9,266 nt of DNA from the IMG/VR virus record IMGVR_UViG_2698536677_000012. One strand, written 5' to 3'. The notes beneath the pieces were generated by a model. That model did not search any database. It was not told the origin of the DNA and saw only the letters and a program-made list of their open reading frames with translations. Positions 1 through 9,266 of the stretch are shown here, piece by piece. The DNA is from a virus (lineage: Duplodnaviria > Heunggongvirae > Uroviricota > Caudoviricetes). Positions within the stretch are counted from its first letter, which is position 1. The number at the start of each line of letters is the position of its first letter. A program made the translations under genes and the position numbers.

Positions 1-219
1 CAGATAAATATGGCTGCCATTTGTTATCACGTATTGGCGCTTATTGTTCGTTGATGCTGATTTTCTCGTCGCTTTTTTTTTGAGTAAGTTATATTAATTA
101 TAACAAATAATTTTCTGTGTTATTTTTTCAGGCTATCCCGTCAGAGGGGAAGCCTGTACTGCCGGGGAGCGAATGGAAAACTGATGTGTCCGGTAACTGC
201 GTGTTCTGTGAACACCATG

Positions 220-405
220 TTACTTAATTATGTAATTCATACCCGAACTCTCTGTTGACAGCCTTCTTCTGCAGGCTTCAATAACCCACGCTGAAAAGTT
301 TCCTGAACCTTTCAGATCAAGAGCGATGTTAATTTGTTCAATCATCTGGTTTGGAAATCGGATGTTGCGGGTTGTTGTTCTGCGGGTTCTGTTCTTTGAT
401 GACAT
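220..405 (-). CDS. Small (61 aa) putative ribbon-helix-helix (Arc/MetJ-like) DNA-binding protein; resembles the small DUF3950/YlcI-like proteins found next to the terminase genes of enterobacterial lambdoid prophages
   Basis: Complete ORF with ATG at 405..403 and TAA at 222..220. The basic N-terminus (KNRTRRTTTR) is followed by RNIRFPNQMIEQINIALDLKGSGNFSAWVIEACRRRL, which fits a beta-strand, helix, Gly turn, helix pattern as in Arc/CopG. It is on the opposite strand to the late genes, in an AT-rich region. The family assignment is from pattern and memory, not a search. Confidence 0.5.
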   Translation of the reverse strand: MSSKNRTRRTTTRNIRFPNQMIEQINIALDLKGSGNFSAWVIEACRRRLSTESSGMNYIIK

Positions 406-581
406 AATGTTTCCCCATATTCAGTGTTGCTGATTTGTATTATCTGAAGTTGCTTTTACGTTAATTTGACGCAGATCAATTAATACGATACCTGCGTCAT
501 AATTGATTATTTCTCGTGGTTTGATGGCGTACACACATGTTGTGATAAACCTTATATAGATGATAATCATTATCATTTCGT

Positions 582-588
582 GGGTCCT
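582..588 (+). other. cosQ: Candidate cosQ (packaging termination element) about 24-30 bp upstream of cosN
   Basis: The sequence gggtcct sits within tgggtcctttccggcgatccgaccggttacg, which closely matches the last ~30 bp of the lambda right end as I recall it. Exact cosQ boundaries are taken from memory of lambda. Confidence 0.4.
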
Positions 589-611
589 TTCCGGCGATCC
601 GACCGGTTACG

Positions 612-623
612 GGGCGGCGACCT
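612..623 (+). other. cosN: cosN: 12-nt cohesive-end sequence GGGCGGCGACCT (terminase nicking site)
   Basis: Exact match to the lambda 12-nt cohesive end gggcggcgacct. The flanks ggttacg | gggcggcgacct | cgcgg also match the lambda right-end/left-end junction. It lies ~180 bp upstream of Nu1, as in lambda. Confidence 0.85.
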
Positions 624-663
624 CGCGGTTTTTCACTATTTATGAAAATTTTTCAGGGAAAAT

Positions 664-775
664 CGTGTCGGTACTTCTCGAATATAACTTTTTGTTTTTC
701 TTTAATATTGCATCCGTAAAGGTCCGACATGAAAGTGTCCGAAAATGCCTTTTTCTGGCGTTTTCATGTCGGGCC
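664..775 (+). other. cosB: Candidate cosB: three Nu1-binding R-like elements (R3-like 664..680, inverted R2-like 721..734, R1-like 757..772) flanking an A/T-tract region (681..720) that could hold an IHF site
   Basis: cgtgtcggtacttctcg (664..680) and ggcgttttcatgtcg (757..772) resemble lambda R sites (cgtttccNttct). ggtccgacatgaaa (721..734) is the near-perfect inverted complement of tttcatgtcgggcc (762..775), mirroring the inverted R2/R1 pair of lambda. Site assignment is by analogy only. Confidence 0.4.
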
Positions 776-800
776 TTGTATTTGATAATGGGTTGTTTTC

Positions 801-1349
801 ATGAAGGTTAATAAAAAGAGGCTTGCCGAAATTTTCAACGTGGACCCGCGGACGATTGAACGCTGGCAGTCTCAGGGACTCCCTTGCGCCTCCAAAGGTA
901 GTAAGGGCATTGAATCTGTATTTGATACTGCCATGGCAATTCAGTGGTATGCGCAGAGGGAAACTGATATCGAAAACGAAAAGCTCCGCAAAGAACTGGA
1001 CGATTTGCGTGCGGCAGCGGAGTCAGATTTACAACCCGGCACCATTGACTATGAACGCTACCGGCTCACAAAAGCGCAGGCAGATGCGCAGGAACTGAAA
1101 AATGCCCGTGAAGACGGAGTAGTGCTGGAAACTGAACTGTTTACCTTCATTCTACAACGTGTGGCACAGGAGATTTCGGGGATACTTGTGCGTGTGCCGT
1201 TGACATTACAGCGTAAATATCCGGACATTTCACCATCACACCTTGATGTGGTGAAAACTGAAATCGCGAAAGCCTCCAATGTTTCAGCTAAGGCCGGTGA
1301 AAACGTGGGCGGGTGGATCGATGATTTCAGACGCGCAGAAGGCAGCTAA
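801..1349 (+). CDS. nu1: Terminase small subunit (lambda gpNu1 homolog), 182 aa
   Basis: The N-terminus [28 protein letters not shown] parallels lambda MEVNKKQLADIFGASIRTIQNWQEQGMP (winged-HTH cosB-binding domain). [28 protein letters not shown] is nearly identical to the lambda equivalent. Length matches lambda (181 aa) and the 3' end overlaps the A start. Confidence 0.95.
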
Positions 1350-3249
1350 TGCAGCCGGTGCGATAGCTACAGGGCTTTTATCTCTCATTATTCCTGTTCC
1401 ACTGACGACAGTTCAGTGGGCCAATAAACATTATTACCTTCCTAAAGAGTCGTCTTATACCCCGGGGCGGTGGGAAACACTGCCGTTTCAGGTTGGCATC
1501 ATGAACTGTATGGGCAACGATCTGATTCGCACGGTTAACCTGATTAAATCTGCCCGTGTTGGTTATACAAAGATGTTGCTGGGAGTGGAGGCTTATTTTA
1601 TTGAGCATAAATCACGCAACAGCCTTCTTTTTCAGCCCACGGACTCAGCTGCTGAAGATTTTATGAAATCTCATGTTGAGCCAACGATAAGGGATGTTCC
1701 TGCATTGCTGGAGCTGGCTCCATGGTTCGGAAGAAAACACCGCGATAATACGCTCACCCTGAAGCGTTTTTCCTCCGGTGTGGGGTTCTGGTGTCTGGGT
1801 GGTGCGGCAGCAAAAAACTACCGTGAAAAATCCGTGGATGTGGTCTGTTATGACGAGCTTTCCTCGTTCGAACCGGATGTTGAAAAAGAGGGTTCGCCAA
1901 CCCTGCTGGGGGATAAACGTATTGAGGGCTCTGTATGGCCAAAATCCATTCGCGGCTCGACGCCTAAAATCAAAGGCTCCTGCCAGATCGAAAAAGCCGC
2001 TAACGAGTCGGCACACTTCATGCGTTTTTATGTGCCCTGTCCGCACTGTGGGGAGGAGCAGTATCTGAAATTTGGCGATGATGCCTCGCCTTTCGGTCTT
2101 AAGTGGGAGAAGAATAAGCCAGAAAGTGTTTTCTACCTTTGTGAGCATCATGGCTGTGTGATCCATCAGTCTGAGCTTGACCAGAGTAACGGGCGGTGGA
2201 TCTGTGAAAACACGGGCATGTGGACCCGTGACGGCCTGATGTTTTTCAGCGCCCGGGGTGATGAAATTCCGCCGCCGCGCTCCATCACTTTCCATATCTG
2301 GACGGCGTACAGTCCGTTCACCACCTGGGTACAGATTGTCTATGACTGGCTGGATGCACTGAAAGATCCCAACGGCCTGAAAACCTTTGTGAACACCACG
2401 CTGGGCGAGACCTGGGAAGAGGCTGTGGGCGAAAAACTCGATCACCAGGTACTGATGGATAAGGTTGTGCGTTACACGGCGGCGGTGCCTGCCCGGGTGG
2501 TTTATCTGACGGCGGGCATTGACTCGCAGCGAAACCGTTTTGAGATGTATGTCTGGGGATGGGCTCCGGGAGAGGAAGCCTTTCTGGTGGATAAAATCAT
2601 CATTATGGGGCGTCCCGATGAGGAAGAGACGCTGTTACGTGTGGATGCGGCGATCAACAAAAAATACCGCCATGCAGACGGAACCGAAATGACTATTTCC
2701 CGTGTCTGCTGGGACATCGGGGGGATCGATGGCGAAATCGTTTATCAGAGGTCAAAAAAACACGGTGTTTTCCGGGTGCTGCCGGTAAAAGGCGCATCTG
2801 TCTATGGCAAGCCGGTGATCACCATGCCAAAAACCCGCAATCAGCGGGGCGTGTATCTGTGTGAAGTGGGGACGGACACCGCAAAAGAAATTCTCTATGC
2901 CCGTATGAAAGCCGATCCCACGCCTGTGGATGAAGCCACGTCGTATGCCATCCGTTTTCCTGATGATCCGGAGATTTTTTCGCAGACAGAGGCGCAGCAA
3001 CTGGTCGCGGAAGAGCTTGTGGAGAAGTGGGAAAAAGGAAAGATGCGTCTGCTGTGGGATAACAAAAAGCGGCGTAACGAAGCGCTGGACTGCCTGGTGT
3101 ATGCCTACGCGGCATTACGTGTGTCCGTGCAACGCTGGCAGCTTGATCTGGCTGTACTGGCAAAATCCCGGGAAGAAGAGACGACCCGGCCAACCCTTAA
3201 AGAACTGGCAGCGAAGCTGTCCGGAGGAGTGAATGGTTACAGTCGCTGA
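1321..3249 (+). CDS. A: Terminase large subunit (lambda gpA homolog), ~642 aa
   Basis: Collinear with lambda gpA along its whole length (e.g. [83 protein letters not shown]). With the start at 1321 (MISDAQ vs lambda MNISNSQ) the Walker-A lysine of KSARVGYTK falls at codon 76, as in lambda. The track ORF begins at 1279, but 1321 gives the lambda-like 29-nt overlap with Nu1. Confidence 0.93.
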
Positions 3250-3439
3250 ACTGCAGGTGCTGCGTCAGGCGCGCCTTGATTTATTAACCGGTAAACGGGT
3301 GGTGTCTGTCCAGAAAGATGGTCGCAGAATTGAATATACGGCAGCTTCTCTGGATGAGCTTAACCGGGCGATCAATGATGCGGAGTCGGTACTGGGGACA
3401 ACCCGCCGTCGCCGTCGTCCGCTGGGAGTGAGGTTATGA
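3233..3439 (+). CDS. W: Head completion / head-tail joining protein (lambda gpW homolog), 68 aa
   Basis: Same length as lambda gpW (68 aa). LTGKRVVSVQKDGRRIEYTAAS matches lambda [22 protein letters not shown]. SD ggagga at 3223..3228. The start overlaps the A stop and the stop overlaps the B start (ATGA). Confidence 0.9.
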   Translation: MVTVAELQVLRQARLDLLTGKRVVSVQKDGRRIEYTAASLDELNRAINDAESVLGTTRRRRRPLGVRL

Positions 3440-5028
3440 AACGAACGCCTGTCCTGATTGATGTGAACGGCGTTCCGCTTCGGGAGAGCCTCAGCTACAA
3501 CGGTGGCGGTGCAGGATTTGGCGGGCAAATGGCAGAGTGGTTGCCACCCTCGCAGAGTGCCGATGCGGCCCTGCTGCCTGCGTTGCGTCTGGGGAATGCC
3601 CGGGCAGATGATCTGGTGCGCAATAACGGAATAGCGGCCAATGCGGTGGCCCTGCATAAGGATCACATTGTCGGGCATATGTTTCTGATTAGCTACCGTC
3701 CGAACTGGCGCTGGCTGGGGATGCGGGAGACCGCGGCAAAAAGTTTTGTCGATGAGGTGGAGGCGGCCTGGTCAGAATACGCAGAAGGGATGTTTGGTGA
3801 GATCGACGTGGAAGGGAAACGCACGTTTACGGAATTTATCCGTGAAGGTGTGGGCGTTCATGCGTTTAACGGCGAAATCTTTGTGCAGCCGGTCTGGGAT
3901 ACGGAGAGTACGCAACTGTTTCGTACGCGTTTTAAAGCCGTGAGTCCGAAACGGGTGGACACGCCAGGACACGGTATCGGGAACCGTTTTCTGCGGGCCG
4001 GTGTGGAGGTCGATCGATATGGCCGTGCCGTTGCGTACCATATCTGTGAGGATGATTTTCCTCGCTCCGGGAATGGACGATGGGAACGGATCCCGCGTGA
4101 ACTACCCACCGGGCGTCCGGCCATGCTGCATATTTTCGAGCCGGTGGAGGACGGGCAGACCCGTGGAGCCAATCAGTTTTACAGCGTTATGGAACGGCTG
4201 AAGATGCTGGATTCCCTGCAGGCAACACAGCTTCAGTCGGCCATAGTGAAGGCGATGTATGCAGCGACGATTGAAAGTGACCTTGATACCGAAAAGGCCT
4301 TTGAATATATCGCCGGTGCGCCGCAGGGGCAGAAGGATAATCCGCTTATTAATATTCTGGATAAGTTCTCCACCTGGTATGACACGAATAGCGTGACGCT
4401 GGGCGGTGTCAAAATTCCGCACCTTTTCCCCGGTGATGATCTGAAACTTCAGACCGCGCAGGATTCAGACAATGGATTTTCTGCGCTTGAACAGGCGCTG
4501 CTGCGGTATATCGCCGCCGGTCTTGGCGTTTCCTACGAACAGTTGTCCCGTGATTACTCGAAGGTCAGTTACTCAAGTGCCCGCGCCTCCGCCAATGAGT
4601 CGTGGCGCTATTTTATGGGGCGGCGAAAATTTATTGCGGCCCGGCTGGCCACGCAGATGTTTTCCTGCTGGCTGGAAGAGGCACTTCTTCGGGGGATTAT
4701 TCGTCCGCCACGGGCACGTTTTGATTTTTATCAGGCGCGATCAGCCTGGTCACGGGCAGAGTGGATTGGTGCCGGAAGAATGGCCATTGACGGGCTCAAG
4801 GAAGTCCAGGAATCAGTGATGCGCATTGAGGCCGGACTGAGCACGTATGAGAAAGAGCTGGCGCTGATGGGCGAGGATTATCAGGACATTTTCCGCCAGC
4901 AGGTCAGGGAATCTGCTGAGCGGCAAAAAGCCGGACTCTCACGTCCGGTGTGGATAGCGCAGGCGTATCAGCAGCAGATAGCGGAGAGTCGCAGGCCGGA
5001 AGAGGAGACAACACCACGTGAGACGTAA
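3436..5028 (+). CDS. B: Portal protein (lambda gpB homolog), 530 aa
   Basis: 530 aa against lambda gpB 533 aa, in the same position after W. The start overlaps the W stop and the stop overlaps the GTG start of the downstream C-like reading frame. Confidence 0.93.
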   Translation: MKRTPVLIDVNGVPLRESLSYNGGGAGFGGQMAEWLPPSQSADAALLPALRLGNARADDLVRNNGIAANAVALHKDHIVGHMFLISYRPNWRWLGMRETAAKSFVDEVEAAWSEYAEGMFGEIDVEGKRTFTEFIREGVGVHAFNGEIFVQPVWDTESTQLFRTRFKAVSPKRVDTPGHGIGNRFLRAGVEVDRYGRAVAYHICEDDFPRSGNGRWERIPRELPTGRPAMLHIFEPVEDGQTRGANQFYSVMERLKMLDSLQATQLQSAIVKAMYAATIESDLDTEKAFEYIAGAPQGQKDNPLINILDKFSTWYDTNSVTLGGVKIPHLFPGDDLKLQTAQDSDNGFSALEQALLRYIAAGLGVSYEQLSRDYSKVSYSSARASANESWRYFMGRRKFIAARLATQMFSCWLEEALLRGIIRPPRARFDFYQARSAWSRAEWIGAGRMAIDGLKEVQESVMRIEAGLSTYEKELALMGEDYQDIFRQQVRESAERQKAGLSRPVWIAQAYQQQIAESRRPEEETTPRET

Positions 5029-5493
5029 TCTTTCACACATTATTGCAGCAGTATTCAATGAACCGCTGCTTCTGGAGCCCGCCTATGCGCGGGTTTTCTT
5101 TTGCGCGCTGGGGCGCGAGATGGGGGCAGCAAGTCTTTCGGTACCGCAACAGCAGGTACAGCTTGATGCTCCCGGGATGCTGGCTGAAACGGACGAGTAC
5201 ATGGCCGGAGGTAAACGACCGGCCCGTGTTTACCGGGTGGTGAACGGTATTGCTGTACTGCCGGTGACCGGCACGCTGGTGCACCGGCTGGGTGGTATGC
5301 GGCCATTTTCCGGAATGACAGGCTATGACGGTATTGTCGCCTGTCTTCAGCTGGCAATGGCGGATAGCCAGGTGCGGGGCGTACTGCTGGACATTGACAG
5401 TCCGGGCGGGCAGGCCGCCGGCGCGTTTGACTGCGCTGACATGATTTACCGCCTCCGTCAGCAGAAGCCGGTCTGGGCACTGTGCAATGACAC
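4456..5493. repeat. Tandem direct repeat, copy 1 (3' 573 bp of portal B plus 5' ~476 bp of protease C)
   Basis: 4456..5493 is repeated at 5495..6532, a period of 1039 bp. The B-derived part looks identical between copies. The C-derived part differs at 8 positions (copy-1 coordinates 5047, 5052, 5110, 5125, 5146, 5162, 5176, 5194). Confidence 0.9.
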
Positions 5494-6067
5494 NGCGCAG
5501 GATTCAGACAATGGATTTTCTGCGCTTGAACAGGCGCTGCTGCGGTATATCGCCGCCGGTCTTGGCGTTTCCTACGAACAGTTGTCCCGTGATTACTCGA
5601 AGGTCAGTTACTCAAGTGCCCGCGCCTCCGCCAATGAGTCGTGGCGCTATTTTATGGGGCGGCGAAAATTTATTGCGGCCCGGCTGGCCACGCAGATGTT
5701 TTCCTGCTGGCTGGAAGAGGCACTTCTTCGGGGGATTATTCGTCCGCCACGGGCACGTTTTGATTTTTATCAGGCGCGATCAGCCTGGTCACGGGCAGAG
5801 TGGATTGGTGCCGGAAGAATGGCCATTGACGGGCTCAAGGAAGTCCAGGAATCAGTGATGCGCATTGAGGCCGGACTGAGCACGTATGAGAAAGAGCTGG
5901 CGCTGATGGGCGAGGATTATCAGGACATTTTCCGCCAGCAGGTCAGGGAATCTGCTGAGCGGCAAAAAGCCGGACTCTCACGTCCGGTGTGGATAGCGCA
6001 GGCGTATCAGCAGCAGATAGCGGAGAGTCGCAGGCCGGAAGAGGAGACAACACCACGTGAGACGTAA
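5018..6067 (+). CDS. Chimeric ORF created by the tandem repeat: first 158 codons of protease C fused in frame, through codon acN (Thr), to the last 190 codons of portal B. Probable assembly artefact, otherwise a truncated fusion gene
   Basis: The track ORF of 349 aa starts with MRRNLSHIIAAVFNEPLLLEPAYARVFFCAL (lambda gpC N-terminus) and ends with the portal C-terminus, identical to 4456..5028. GTG start at 5018 overlapping the B stop. The N at 5494 falls in a codon whose meaning does not depend on N. Confidence 0.35.
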   Translation: MRRNLSHIIAAVFNEPLLLEPAYARVFFCALGREMGAASLSVPQQQVQLDAPGMLAETDEYMAGGKRPARVYRVVNGIAVLPVTGTLVHRLGGMRPFSGMTGYDGIVACLQLAMADSQVRGVLLDIDSPGGQAAGAFDCADMIYRLRQQKPVWALCNDXAQDSDNGFSALEQALLRYIAAGLGVSYEQLSRDYSKVSYSSARASANESWRYFMGRRKFIAARLATQMFSCWLEEALLRGIIRPPRARFDFYQARSAWSRAEWIGAGRMAIDGLKEVQESVMRIEAGLSTYEKELALMGEDYQDIFRQQVRESAERQKAGLSRPVWIAQAYQQQIAESRRPEEETTPRET

Positions 6068-6532
6068 TCTTTCACACATTATTGCCGCAGCATTCAATGA
6101 ACCGCTGCTTCTGGAGCCCGCCTATGCGCGGGTTTTCTTTTGCGCGCTCGGGCGCGAGATGGGAGCAGCAAGTCTTTCGGTACCACAACAGCAGGTACAG
6201 TTTGATGCTCCCGGAATGCTGGCTGAAACGGATGAGTACATGGCCGGAGGTAAACGACCGGCCCGTGTTTACCGGGTGGTGAACGGTATTGCTGTACTGC
6301 CGGTGACCGGCACGCTGGTGCACCGGCTGGGTGGTATGCGGCCATTTTCCGGAATGACAGGCTATGACGGTATTGTCGCCTGTCTTCAGCTGGCAATGGC
6401 GGATAGCCAGGTGCGGGGCGTACTGCTGGACATTGACAGTCCGGGCGGGCAGGCCGCCGGCGCGTTTGACTGCGCTGACATGATTTACCGCCTCCGTCAG
6501 CAGAAGCCGGTCTGGGCACTGTGCAATGACAC
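5495..6532. repeat. Tandem direct repeat, copy 2
   Basis: Second copy of the 1039-bp unit. The junction between copies is the single ambiguous base N at 5494, inside the microhomology acNgc (B has acCgc, C has acGgc). Confidence 0.9.
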
Positions 6533-7471
6533 GGCCTGTTCTGCAGCCATGCTGCTGGCGTCGGCCTGCTCCCGACGGCTGGTTACCCAGACATCCCGTA
6601 TCGGCTCCATTGGCGTGATGATGAGCCATGTCAGCTATGCCGGTCATCTGGCGCAGGCCGGTGTGGATATCACGCTGATTTATGCCGGGGCGCACAAGGT
6701 GGATGGCAATCAGTTTGAAGCGTTGCCGGCAGAGGTTCGCCAGGATATGCAGCAGCGGATTGATGCGGCGCACCGGATGTTTGCCGAAAAAGTGGCGATG
6801 TATACCGGGTTGTCTGTGGATGCGGTCACGGGAACAGAGGCCGCCGTTTTTGAAGGTCAGTCCGGCATTGAGGCCGGGCTGGCGGATGAATTAATCAATG
6901 CGTCGGATGCCATCAGTGTGATGGCCACGGCGCTGAACAGTAATGTCAGAGGAGGCACTATGCCGCAATTAACTGCAACGGAAGCNNNNNNNNNNNNNTT
7001 GAACAGGCCCGGGCGATTCTGGCCGCGGCGGCACCGCAGCAGCCGGTGGCATCCGCGCAGAGTGAAGCCGATCGCATTATGGCGTGTGAAGAAGCGAACG
7101 GTCGTGAACAACTGGCGGCAACGCTGGCGGCGATGCCGGAGATGACGGTGGAAAAAGCCCGCCCGATCCTGGCGGCTGCACCACTGGCGGATGCCGGGCC
7201 CTCACTTCGTGATCAGATCATGGCCCTGGATGAGGCAAAAGGGGCAGAAGCGCAGGCTGAAAAACTGGCGGCCTGCCCGGGAATGACCGTGGAGAACGCC
7301 CGGGCTGTGCTGGCTGCGGGATCAGGTAAGGCCGAACCGGTCTCTGCATCCACAACCGCCCTGTTTGAACATTTCATGGCGAATCATTCACCGGCAGCGG
7401 TGCGGGGTGGCGTGTCACAGACGTCAGCAGACGGTGATGCGGACGTGAAAATGCTCATGGCCATGCCATGA
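6057..7471 (+). CDS. C: Prohead protease / minor capsid protein C (lambda gpC homolog, ClpP/SppA-like serine protease), interrupted by a 13-N gap at 6986..6998
   Basis: GTG start at 6057, SD gaggag at 6041..6046, overlapping the duplicated B-fragment stop. NEPLLLEPAYARVFFCAL, VNGIAVLPVTGTLV, PFSGMTGYDGI, LLDIDSPGGQAAGAFDCADMI, KPVWAL.ND, RRLVTQT, GSIGVMMSH, HKVDGN and TEAAVFEGQ.AIEAGLADEL are collinear with lambda gpC. After the gap the frame shifts by +2 (track ORF 7046..7471), consistent with a gap of unknown length. Stop TGA at 7469..7471. Confidence 0.85.
6960..7471 (+). CDS. nu3: Scaffolding protein Nu3 homolog, translated from an internal in-frame start within C (nested gene); contains the N gap
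   Basis: ATG at 6960 is in frame with C and preceded by a strong SD agaggagg (6947..6954). GGTMPQLTATE parallels lambda SGGRMTKETQ at the Nu3 start. The C-terminal part (RIMACEEANGRE, PGMTVE.AR.ILAAAP) matches lambda Nu3 motifs. Confidence 0.6.
6986..6998. other. Assembly gap (13 N) inside C/Nu3
   Basis: Run of 13 n characters. The reading frame of C differs on the two sides, so the true gap length is not 13. Confidence 0.95.
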
Positions 7472-7507
7472 AGTCAGTGCTGACCATCAATATGAGGTTT
7501 TAACAAA

Positions 7508-7855
7508 ATGGTGACGAAAACCATCACTGAACAGCGTGCGGAAGTACGTATTTTTGCTGGTAGTGATCCGGCTCATACCGCCACAGGCAGCAGCGGGATT
7601 TCTTCTGCAACACCGGCTCTGACGCCCCTGATGCTGGATGAAGCCACCGGGAAACTGGTGGTCTGGGATGGACAGAAAGCCGGTAGTGCGGTTGGCATAC
7701 TGGTACTGCCGCTTGAAGGCACAGAGACGGTGCTGACCTATTACAAGTCGGGGACCTTTGCGACGGAGGCAATCCGCTGGCCTGACAGTGTGGATGAACA
7801 CAAAAAGGCAAATGCCTTTGCCGGCACAGCCCTGAGTCACGCGGCTCTGCCATAA
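7508..7855 (+). CDS. D: Head decoration protein (lambda gpD homolog), 115 aa
   Basis: [49 protein letters not shown] and AFAGTA match lambda gpD (110 aa) motifs [37 protein letters not shown] and FYKSGTF. SD gagg at 7494..7497. Confidence 0.92.
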   Translation: [115 protein letters not shown]

Positions 7856-7862
7856 CACGTTA

Positions 7863-7884
7863 TCAGGCCACCATGGTGGCCTGA
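7863..7884. repeat. Perfect 22-bp palindrome tcaggccaccatggtggcctga in the D-E intergenic region (potential RNA hairpin or dimeric protein site)
   Basis: The sequence equals its own reverse complement. It lies 8 nt after the D stop and 28 nt before the E start, with no downstream T-run. Confidence 0.6.
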
Positions 7885-7912
7885 CTGATTTCTGAATGAA
7901 AGGAACTGATTT

Positions 7913-8941
7913 ATGGGATTGTTTACGACCCGCCAGTTACTCGGTTATACCGAACAAAAAGTGAAATTCCGTGCGCTGTTTCTGGAGCTGTTTTTCCGCC
8001 GGACGGTGAATTTCCATACCGAAGAAGTGATGCTGGACAAAATTACCGGAAAAACGCCGGTGGCGGCCTATGTCTCCCCGATCGTTGAAGGAAAAGTGCT
8101 GCGCCATCGTGGTGGTGAAACCCGCGTGTTGCGTCCGGGCTACGTCAAGCCGAAACACGAATTTAATTACCAGCAGGCGGTTGAGCGCCTTCCCGGTGAA
8201 GATCCGGCTCAGCTGAACGACCCGGCCTACCGTCGTCTGCGTATCATCACTGATAACCTCAAACAGGAAGAGCACGCTATTGTGCAGGTGGAAGAAATGC
8301 AGGCGGTGAATGCCGTGCTGTATGGCAAATATACGATGGAAGGAGACCAGTTCGAGAAAATTGAAGTCGATTTTGGCCGATCGACGAAGAATAACATCAT
8401 ACAAGGTAGCGGTAAGGAGTGGTCAAAACAGGATCGTGACACGTTCGACCCGACATATGATATCGACCTTTTCTGTGATCAGGCCAGTGGTCTTGTGAAT
8501 ATTGCCATTATGGACGGTACCGTCTGGCGTCTGCTGAATGGCTTTAAGCTTTTCCGCGAAAAAATGGATACCCGTCGCGGTTCAAATTCACAACTCGAAA
8601 CGGCAGTGAAAGATCTGGGCGCAGTGGTATCCTTCAAGGGGTATTACGGCGATCTGGCCATTGTGGTAGCGAAAACGTCTTATGTGGCAGAGGACGGTAC
8701 CGAAAAACGTTATCTGCCGGAGGGCACGCTGGTGCTGGGGAATACGGCAGCAGAGGGGATTCGTTGCTATGGAGCCATTAAGGATGCACAGGCGTTGTCT
8801 GAAGGAGTGGTGGCTTCTTCCCGTTACCCGAAACACTGGCTGACCGTGGGCGATCCGTCCTGTGAATTCACCATGACGCAGTCCGCGCCGCTGATGGTGC
8901 TGCCGGATCCGGATGAGTTTGTGGTGGTACAGGTGAAATAA
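7913..8941 (+). CDS. E: Major capsid protein (lambda gpE homolog), 342 aa
   Basis: Collinear with lambda gpE (341 aa): TTRQLL, EQKVKF, LFLELFFR, YVSPIV, PGYVKPKHE, DPAYRRLRII, VEEMQAV, GKYTM, TRRGSNSQLETAVKDLG, GDLAIVV, LVLGNT, YPKHW and EFTMTQSAPLMVLPDPDEFV. SD aagga at 7900..7904. Confidence 0.95.
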   Translation: MGLFTTRQLLGYTEQKVKFRALFLELFFRRTVNFHTEEVMLDKITGKTPVAAYVSPIVEGKVLRHRGGETRVLRPGYVKPKHEFNYQQAVERLPGEDPAQLNDPAYRRLRIITDNLKQEEHAIVQVEEMQAVNAVLYGKYTMEGDQFEKIEVDFGRSTKNNIIQGSGKEWSKQDRDTFDPTYDIDLFCDQASGLVNIAIMDGTVWRLLNGFKLFREKMDTRRGSNSQLETAVKDLGAVVSFKGYYGDLAIVVAKTSYVAEDGTEKRYLPEGTLVLGNTAAEGIRCYGAIKDAQALSEGVVASSRYPKHWLTVGDPSCEFTMTQSAPLMVLPDPDEFVVVQVK

Positions 8942-8949
8942 TCCGTGAG

Positions 8950-8977
8950 CGGGGGCGAAATGCCCCCGTGTTTTTTT
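8950..8977 (+). terminator. Rho-independent terminator-like hairpin after E
   Basis: A 7-bp G+C stem cgggggc / gcccccg (8950..8956 and 8962..8968) with loop gaaat, followed by tg and a run of seven T (8971..8977), 9 nt after the E stop. Confidence 0.7.
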
Positions 8978-8992
8978 CACAGGGAGCTGGAT

Positions 8993-9266
8993 ATGGCAAC
9001 AAAAGAAGAAAATCAGAAACGTCTTCGTGAACTGGCTGGTCTGCTGGGGCGCGAGGCGGATATGTCGGGGAGTGCTGCGGATATCGCACAGCGTGTGGCA
9101 GAGTGGGAAGAGGAGGTTTGCGCCTCGGAAAATGAAATCGCAGATGTTGATGATACCGTTCATGAGCAGGCATGCAGGCACACCGGTGAGGATGACGTTG
9201 GTATTCTGGAACGTATCAGGCTTCTGAAGTGTTTTTACCTGTGCGGTGTTGACGATGAAACAGGTG
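8993..9266 (+). CDS. FI: DNA-packaging protein FI homolog (lambda gpFI), 5' partial, running off the window end
   Basis: ATG at 8993 with SD agggag (8981..8986). The open frame continues to the window end (91 codons: MATKEENQKRLRELAGLLGREADMSGSAADIAQRVAEWEEE...). It occupies the lambda FI position right after E, and the acidic N-terminal pattern resembles lambda gpFI. It is absent from the ORF track because it has no stop in the window. Confidence 0.6.
   Translation, partial: MATKEENQKRLRELAGLLGREADMSGSAADIAQRVAEWEEEVCASENEIADVDDTVHEQACRHTGEDDVGILERIRLLKCFYLCGVDDETG

What the first reader, a model, noticed from the sequence alone, without database searches (positions are those of the whole stretch)
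4456..6532. 1039-bp tandem duplication fusing protease C N-terminus in frame to portal C-terminus, joined at a single N
4456..5493 (portal codons 341-530 plus the first 158 codons of C) recurs at 5495..6532. The join at 5494 is an N sitting in the microhomology acNgc, exactly where the two parental sequences differ (C in the portal, G in C). The resulting ORF 5018..6067 is an intact in-frame C(1-158)::B(341-530) fusion, then a second, complete C gene follows. An ambiguity code at the junction plus a second N-gap 1.5 kb downstream makes an assembly artefact the most likely explanation, for example repeat resolution across several lambdoid prophages. If real, it would be a microhomology-mediated tandem duplication giving a protease-portal fusion protein in a head-gene operon, which would be unusual.
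Basis: seen in the sequence. Interest (0 to 1): 0.6.

Follow-up and report, generated by a model that had tools for sequence, protein, structure and literature searches.

The report
False duplication from overlapping prophage contigs
The apparent 1-kb tandem duplication and protease-portal fusion gene in this lambda-like prophage head operon is almost certainly a scaffolding artefact, made by placing two overlapping contigs from two closely related prophage variants one after the other with a single N between them.

Summary
The copies are not identical. Eight differences cluster in 148 nt. Copy 1 carries the allele of one natural prophage lineage (P1). Copy 2 carries the allele of another (P2; 1 mismatch in 1491 nt).

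The unit is bounded on both sides by sites where P1 and P2 differ (4455; 5494, equivalent to 6533). The 13-N gap replaces a 104-nt segment whose first and last bases are also P1/P2 SNPs. The window also ends one base before such a SNP. Five of six contig ends therefore abut inter-lineage SNPs (P about 1e-5 to 1e-4).

The scaffold alternates P2, P1, N, P2, gap, P1. The junction is absent from 1870 complete E. coli genomes that carry both flanks, from 18 phage records and from three contig collections. All 77 related loci that span the unit hold it once. Another public draft (L012) has the same gap breakpoints and its own single-N tandem duplication.

Verdict: these are duplicated overlapping contigs, not biology. 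Interest is low.

The parts
801..1349 (+). Terminase small subunit gene (Nu1-like)
   Evidence: ORF. Homologous genes are annotated terminase small subunit / PF07471 in L001, L002 and L113-L128.
1321..3249 (+). Terminase large subunit gene (A-like), 642 aa
   Evidence: The exact protein is on record in more than 10,000 blocks, with PF05876 and PF20454.
3233..3439 (+). Head-tail joining gene (W-like)
   Evidence: ORF. PF02831 in homologous loci.
3436..5028 (+). Portal gene (B-like), 530 aa, intact
   Evidence: PF05136, E 2.5e-100. The exact protein is found on 24 or more contigs, always followed by a single 501-aa C gene.
1..5493 (.). Contig 1 of the scaffold. Haplotype P2-like at 1-3258, shared at 3259-3405, P1-like at 3406-5493.
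   Evidence: Mismatch table against L004 (P1) and L128 (P2). The contig ends one base before the P1/P2 SNP equivalent to 6533.
4456..5493 (+). Repeat copy 1: portal codons 341-530 plus C codons 1-158, P1 allele at the 8 SNPs
   Evidence: Region 5030-5210 is 100% identical to L003-L012. Region 3259-5493 has 3 mismatches to L009.
5494..5494 (.). Single N: scaffold join between contig 1 and contig 2
   Evidence: Single-N joins in other public drafts of this prophage type stand for either lost or duplicated sequence (L012, L027).
5495..6532 (+). Repeat copy 2: the same unit with the P2 allele at the 8 SNPs, forming the 5' end of contig 2
   Evidence: Contig 2 (5495-6985) has 1 mismatch in 1491 nt to L123, L125, L126, L127 and L128 (2 to L124). 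It starts one base after P1/P2 SNP 4455.
5018..6067 (+). Apparent fusion ORF, C(1-158)::B(341-530), 349 aa: a product of the contig join
   Evidence: Pfam finds no Peptidase_S49 match, only the last 57 positions of the portal model. The ORF as translated (with X at the acN codon) was not on record in the gene-position index.
6057..6985 (+). 5' part of the S49 protease/scaffold gene (C-like) on contig 2
   Evidence: Aligns to L001 6219-7147, annotated as S49 family peptidase.
6986..6998 (.). 13-N gap standing for a 104-nt P1/P2 bubble
   Evidence: The segment is 104 nt in 73 of 73 loci. Its first and last bases are P1/P2 SNPs (C...G against T...A). L012 has the same breakpoints with a single N.
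6999..7471 (+). 3' part of the C/Nu3-like gene on contig 3
   Evidence: Aligns to L001 from 7252 onward. The stop at 7469-7471 lies 37 nt upstream of D, as in the references.
7508..7855 (+). Head decoration gene (D-like)
   Evidence: PF02924. The exact protein occurs only in P2-type loci L123-L128.
7913..8941 (+). Major capsid gene (E-like)
   Evidence: ORF. PF03864 in homologous loci.

Best explanation
The window is a small scaffold of three contigs (1-5493, 5495-6985, 6999-9266). It was assembled from a sample that held two closely related phage-21/lambda-type prophage head modules, here called P1 and P2.

The assembler broke wherever P1 and P2 differ. Contig 1 follows the P1 path through the portal and the start of C. 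It stops one base before the next P1/P2 SNP. Contig 2 starts one base after the last portal SNP and follows the P2 path through the same stretch and onward. The two contigs therefore overlap by 1038 nt and differ only at an 8-SNP allelic cluster.

A scaffolder linked them in the right order but did not merge the overlap, and it wrote one N as a minimal gap. That produces a false tandem duplication and a false C::B fusion ORF. The real locus has one portal gene followed by one 501-aa C gene.

Shown: two haplotypes, breakpoints at haplotype SNPs, N runs that are not true to size, and absence of the junction elsewhere. Inferred: the exact software behaviour, and that both haplotypes sit in one genome rather than in a mixed sample.
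For: 1. The copies differ at 8 sites clustered in 148 nt (P = 6e-6). Copy 1's allele is 100% identical to L003-L012 and copy 2's to L002 and L123-L128. Contig 2 as a whole has 1 mismatch in 1491 nt to five P2 loci (2 to L124), and contig 1 at 3259-5493 has 3 mismatches to P1.

2. Lineages P1 and P2 differ at 4431, 4449, 4455, the 8-SNP cluster, and 6533. In the window the two copies differ only at the 8-SNP cluster, so the unit 4456-5493 is bounded on both sides by discriminating SNPs.

3. The 13-N gap replaces 104 nt whose first and last bases are P1/P2 SNPs. The base after the window end is G in all 10 P1 loci and A in the P2 loci that contain the window's last 25 nt (L123-L125, L127, L128). 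Five of six contig ends abut such sites; the binomial P is 7e-6 to 1e-4.

4. The scaffold alternates P2, P1, N, P2, gap, P1.

5. The junction is absent from 1870 complete E. coli genomes that carry both flanks, from 18 phage records, and from genome, viral and metagenome contig collections. The 2401-nt query maps onto 1362 nt in all 30 listed top hits. 77 of 77 loci that span the unit hold it once.

6. There is a precedent. Public draft L012 (GCA_001285925.2) has a single N at the same gap breakpoints. It also has its own 233-nt tandem duplication around a single N, with clustered SNPs between the copies.

7. Related prophage copies within one genome are the norm: a median of 2 and up to 7 places per genome.

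8. The layout meets the alignment criteria for duplicated overlapping contigs in PMC2864568.
Against: No reads are available, so the absence of junction-spanning reads is not shown directly. The source assembly and its software were not identified. The 2+2 nt match around the N (AC/GC) has roughly a 1/256 chance under a pure spacer model and stays unexplained except as coincidence. No complete genome in the collection carries the exact P1 haplotype (best 99.2%), so co-residence of P1 and P2 in one genome is inferred and was not observed. The window's 5' end is not at a SNP.
Confidence: 0.95

Rival explanations
1. A real microhomology-mediated tandem duplication arose within one prophage, joined in ACSGC. 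One copy was later patched by gene conversion from a second prophage. The N is only a low-quality base call.
For: The repeat is head-to-tail and in frame, with a 2+2 nt match around the junction. A 1-kb increase would fit lambda packaging limits (own knowledge).
Against: This reading needs an extra conversion event to explain 8 of 8 clustered differences matching a natural allele. It does not explain why both breakpoints, both edges of the second gap and the scaffold end sit at P1/P2 SNPs. It does not explain the N or the gap that is not true to size. The junction is unseen in any of 1870 complete genomes or in the other collections. The fusion ORF keeps neither an S49 domain nor most of the portal domain.
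Confidence: 0.02
2. A real illegitimate recombination occurred between two different co-resident prophages (the P1 C gene with the P2 portal gene). It created a hybrid junction, possibly as part of a large segmental rearrangement.
For: The left side of the junction is the P1 haplotype and the right side is P2, as such an event would give.
Against: Homologous recombination within the flanking 591-nt and 299-nt identical stretches would be far more likely than a 2-nt microhomology event (inference). Breakpoints falling exactly beside discriminating SNPs on both partners are unexplained, with a rough chance of about 0.05 x 0.01 (my estimate and one search counts). The N at the junction is unexplained. 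The same SNP-bounded pattern recurs at the second gap and at the scaffold end, which are plainly assembly breaks.
Confidence: 0.02
3. This is the same artefact, but the two haplotypes come from two strains or phage variants in a mixed or metagenomic sample rather than from two prophages in one genome.
For: The source of the window is unknown. P1-type and P2-type contigs both occur in metagenome assemblies as well as in isolates. No complete genome with the exact P1 haplotype was found.
Against: Multiple related prophages per E. coli genome are common (median 2 places), so a mixture is not needed. Nothing in the window separates the two cases.
Confidence: 0.15

Closest known systems
Duplicated overlapping contigs (DOC), the false segmental duplications of Kelley and Salzberg 2010 (PMC2864568)
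   Same: Two adjacent contigs in a scaffold overlap at their ends. The overlap holds allelic differences flanked by identical sequence. The result looks like a recent duplication. Here the overlap is 1038 nt at 99.2% identity, and the alignment reaches both contig ends exactly.
   Different: In that paper the two haplotypes are the homologous chromosomes of a diploid vertebrate. Here they are two related prophage copies, or variants, in a bacterial sample. The mate-pair test that defines a confirmed mis-assembly could not be run.
Single-N joins in other public drafts of the same prophage type (L012 = GCA_001285925.2 CYEG01000068.1; L027 = IMGVR_UViG_2671180758_000013)
   Same: L012 has a single N at exactly the window's 13-N breakpoints. 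It also has a 233-nt tandem duplication around a single N whose copies differ by clustered SNPs. In L027 a single N replaces about 70 nt of the portal gene.
   Different: The duplicated segments are different (the D/E boundary in L012). The breakpoints of the L012 duplication are not at sites that are polymorphic in my sample of loci.
Head-gene module of lambdoid phage 21 / lambda (cos, Nu1, A, W, B, C/Nu3, D, E, FI)
   Same: Gene order and families match: PF07471, PF05876, PF02831, PF05136, PF01343, PF02924, PF03864. Phage 21 records match both flanks of the junction at 98%.
   Different: Every characterised or complete relative has one B gene followed by one C gene. The extra C::B ORF exists only in this scaffold.

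Membership tests
Duplicated overlapping contigs (false duplication from mis-assembly; PMC2864568) | The two copies lie on separate, adjacent contigs of one scaffold, separated by a gap | tested here: met
   The N at 5494 lies exactly between the copies. A second N run shows that the record is a scaffold.
Duplicated overlapping contigs (false duplication from mis-assembly; PMC2864568) | Alignment of more than 300 bp at more than 95% identity between the end of one contig and the start of the next, within 300 bp of both ends | tested here: met
   1038 nt, 8 mismatches (99.2%), reaching 5493 and 5495, which is 0 bp from both ends. The criteria are quoted.
Duplicated overlapping contigs (false duplication from mis-assembly; PMC2864568) | Differences between the copies are haplotype variants, not random divergence | tested here: met
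   8 of 8 differences match two natural alleles. The clustering P is 6e-6.
Duplicated overlapping contigs (false duplication from mis-assembly; PMC2864568) | Read-pair distances fit better when the contigs are merged | not testable with these tools
   No reads or source assembly are available.
Real microhomology-mediated tandem duplication | A defined junction sequence carried by continuous DNA | tested here: not met
   The junction base is N. The junction 30-mer is absent from all collections searched. Read-level continuity is not testable.
Real microhomology-mediated tandem duplication | Copies derive from one template, so they are identical or randomly diverged | tested here: not met
   The copies carry two different natural haplotypes.
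Real microhomology-mediated tandem duplication | Breakpoints are independent of assembly-graph features | tested here: not met
   Both breakpoints abut P1/P2 SNPs, as do both edges of the second gap and the scaffold's 3' end.
Lambda/phage-21-type head module | Nu1-A-W-B-C-D-E gene order with the matching Pfam families | tested here: met

The most novel reading that the evidence does not exclude
The junction is real. An illegitimate, microhomology-guided exchange between two co-resident phage-21-type prophages, or a tandem duplication later patched by conversion, created an in-frame C(1-158)::portal(341-530) ORF in the head operon, and the N is only a poor base call.
Probability: 0.03. Interest if true: 0.3.

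Novelty: not a real feature. Interest (0 to 1): 0.05.

Why it matters
The finding matters mainly as a caution. A gene caller would report a 349-aa 'protease-portal fusion' and an extra copy of the protease start from this record, and neither exists. The case also offers a check that needs no reads. When natural relatives are available, one can test whether the edges of a repeat or gap fall exactly on sites that distinguish known haplotypes. Here they do, at five of six contig ends, which points to an assembly graph and not to recombination. If the junction were real, it would be a modest curiosity: a probably non-functional fusion ORF in a prophage head operon.

Tried and rejected
1. I tried to identify the source assembly. 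The junction pattern gave 0 hits in genome contigs, viral contigs and metagenome contigs. A 39-mer with two variants absent from the 12 loci held at that point (L001-L012) gave 99 IMG/VR loci plus one E. albertii contig, none of them the source. The source is still unknown.\n\n2. I looked for a complete genome holding both the exact P1 and P2 haplotypes. No RefSeq complete genome has the exact P1 probe (best 99.2%), so co-residence could not be shown directly.\n\n3. I tested whether the SNP-bounded breakpoint rule also holds for the single-N joins in other drafts. It is clear at one side of the L027 join (4044), weak at the other (4113), and not seen at the L012 duplication join. The rule is therefore not universal.\n\n4. 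I searched the literature for the scaffolder rule that writes a single n for a negative gap. The search gave only indirect statements. That SSPACE-type scaffolders do this rests on my own recollection and is not needed for the verdict.\n\n5. I rejected the reading of the N as an ambiguity code for C/G at a real junction. The neighbouring bases are polymorphic in their own contexts (C/T/A at 4455, G/T at 6533), and the N behaves like the other scaffold spacers.
Full report
**Observation**

The window is the head-gene end of a lambda/phage-21-type prophage. It carries, in order, a terminase small subunit gene (801-1349), a large subunit gene (1321-3249), a W-like gene (3233-3439), a portal gene (3436-5028), an S49 protease/scaffold gene (C-like), a D-like gene (7508-7855), an E-like gene (7913-8941) and the start of FI.

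The reported repeat is real in the sequence. 4456-5493 and 5495-6532 are in register at an offset of 1039. There is a single N at 5494 and a second run of 13 N at 6986-6998. ORF 5018-6067 is open and reads C codons 1-158, then acN, then portal codons 341-530.

The description needs two corrections. The copies differ at 8 positions, all between 5047 and 5194; the probability of such clustering is 6e-6. The C gene after the repeat is not complete in the window. Against references L001 and L002, the three N-free blocks map to 1764-6694, 5657-7147 and 7252 onward. The first two blocks therefore overlap by 1038 nt on the reference, and the 13 N stand for 104 nt. That segment is 104 nt long in 73 of 73 related loci. 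The N runs are scaffold spacers, not sized gaps.

**Is the junction seen anywhere else?**

It is not. A 2401-nt query across the repeat maps onto only 1362 nt in all 30 listed top complete E. coli genomes. A 121-nt probe centred on the junction finds both halves in 1870 genomes. In none of them are the halves joined. The same is true of 18 phage records, including phage 21. The junction 30-mer has no match in the species-representative genome contigs, in IMG/VR or in the metagenome contigs. The exact portal, terminase and D proteins of the window occur on many contigs, and in every place shown they sit beside one 530-aa portal gene and one 501-aa C gene. The one exception is L012, where an N splits the C gene. 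Across the loci fetched, 77 alignments span the unit as a single colinear copy.

**The two copies are two natural haplotypes**

Copy 1's version of the 8-SNP cluster is identical to that of loci L003-L012, called P1 here. Copy 2's version is identical to that of L002 and L123-L128, called P2. Block 5495-6985 as a whole has one mismatch in 1491 nt to five P2 loci (L123, L125-L128; 2 to L124). Region 3259-5493 has three mismatches to P1. A duplication copied in place from one template would not give this.

**Where the blocks end**

Lineages P1 and P2 differ densely through the portal gene up to and including 4455. They differ again at the 8-SNP cluster and at 6533; the two further lineage differences (5352, 5407) are identical in both window copies. 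The repeat unit runs from the base after 4455 to the base before the equivalent of 6533. Both edges are therefore set by haplotype SNPs.

The same holds for the second gap. P1 reads C...G and P2 reads T...A at the first and last of the 104 missing bases, with five more differences inside. The window ends one base before a site that is G in all ten P1 loci and A in the P2 loci that contain the window's last 25 nt. Five of six block ends abut such sites. The background density of polymorphic sites is 6.7-11.7%, which gives a binomial probability of 7e-6 to 1e-4. Only the window's 5' end is not at a SNP.

The scaffold also switches haplotype along its length:

| Window region | Haplotype |
|---|---|
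| 1-3258 | P2 |
| 3259-3405 | shared |
| 3406-4455 | P1 |
| 4456-5046 | shared |
| 5047-5194 | P1 |
| 5195-5493 | shared |
| 5494 | N |
| 5495-6085 | shared |
| 6086-6233 | P2 |
| 6234-6532 | shared |
| 6533-6985 | P2 |
| 6986-6998 | 13-N gap |
| 6999-7507 | shared |
| 7508-7855 | mixed (7563 P2-like, 7852 P1-like) |
| 7856-8941 | P1 |
| 8942-9266 | shared |

**Mechanism**

The sample held two related head modules. More than one matching place per genome is usual: the median is 2 places and the maximum 7. The assembler produced one path that follows P1 up to the branch at 5494, and another that starts at the branch after 4455 and follows P2. Both paths include the shared stretches, so their ends overlap by 1038 nt.

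A scaffolder ordered them correctly but did not merge them, probably because of the 8 mismatches, and it wrote one N. This matches the 'duplicated overlapping contigs' class of false duplication (PMC2864568), with prophage copies in place of diploid haplotypes. My recollection, which I did not verify here, is that some scaffolders write a single n when the estimated gap is negative.

A public draft of the same prophage type gives an independent precedent. L012 has a single N at exactly the window's 13-N breakpoints. It also has a 233-nt tandem duplication around another single N, with clustered SNPs between the copies. In L027 a single N replaces about 70 nt of the portal gene.

**Rivals**

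A real microhomology-mediated duplication would need an added gene-conversion patch. It would not explain the N, the SNP-bounded edges or the haplotype switching. A real illegitimate exchange between two prophages would explain P1 on the left and P2 on the right, but not the other features. I give these two readings about 4% together. Whether the two haplotypes sit in one genome or come from a mixed sample is open, and the verdict does not depend on it.

If the ORF were real, it would lack the S49 domain. That domain spans residues 146-293 of the intact protein, and the fusion ORF gives no S49 hit. The ORF would keep only the last 57 positions of the portal model.

**What remains unexplained**

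The 2+2 nt match around the N (portal ACCGC, C gene ACGGC) has roughly a 1 in 256 chance under a pure spacer model. I treat it as coincidence. The source record and its assembly software were not identified.

**Verdict**

This is an assembly artefact and not a biological feature. The locus should be read as one portal gene followed by one C gene.

Noticed in passing
window 6986-6998; L012 6180: The 13-N gap hides a 104-nt stretch of the C/Nu3 gene and shifts the frame. An unrelated public draft (GCA_001285925.2) breaks at exactly the same two bases, with a single N. The missing stretch is a P1/P2 bubble with 7 differences, including its first and last bases.
   Followed up: yes
L012 7053-7518 (equivalent to window 7871-8113): This public draft assembly carries a 233-nt tandem duplication at the D/E boundary, with a single N (7296) about 10 nt into the second copy. 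It gives a spurious 71-aa ORF, and the copies differ by five SNPs within 64 nt. It is the same class of artefact as in the window.
   Followed up: partly
L027 5704 (equivalent to window 4044-4113): In an IMG/VR contig a single N replaces about 70 nt of the portal gene. Window position 4044 is a common polymorphic site (C 74 / T 18).
   Followed up: partly
window 3259-3405: Contig 1 itself switches from the P2 haplotype (1-3258; 0-1 mismatch per bin to L128) to the P1 haplotype (3406-4455; 2 mismatches against 52) inside a shared stretch. None of the 128 fetched loci has this combination, so contig 1 may be chimeric, or it may be a rare natural recombinant.
   Followed up: partly
window 612-623: GGGCGGCGACCT matches the 12-nt cohesive end of lambda (from memory). 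The sequence lies about 180 nt upstream of the small terminase gene, so the window appears to span the cos site.
   Followed up: no
window 8947-8977: A G+C-rich hairpin followed by a run of T (gcgggggcgaaatgcccccgtgttttttt) lies between the major capsid gene and FI. It looks like an intrinsic terminator.
   Followed up: no
window 7000-7330: The Nu3-like part of the C gene holds three loosely similar in-frame units (gaacaggcccgggcgattctggccgcggcg / gaaaaagcccgcccgatcctggcggctgca / gagaacgcccgggctgtgctggctgcggga), seen by eye only. An arm at 7249-7279 pairs at 74% with 5407-5437 and 6446-6476, which is probably chance.
   Followed up: no
L001 8166-9481 (E. coli UPEC957C): In this complete genome the homologous prophage is cut off inside the major capsid gene and abuts a truncated TonB-dependent receptor pseudogene, so it is a prophage remnant.
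   Followed up: no
window 7563: A single base makes the D protein identical to P2-type loci only, while the rest of contig 3 is P1-like (1 mismatch to P1 against 7 to P2). This is another haplotype switch inside a contig.
   Followed up: partly
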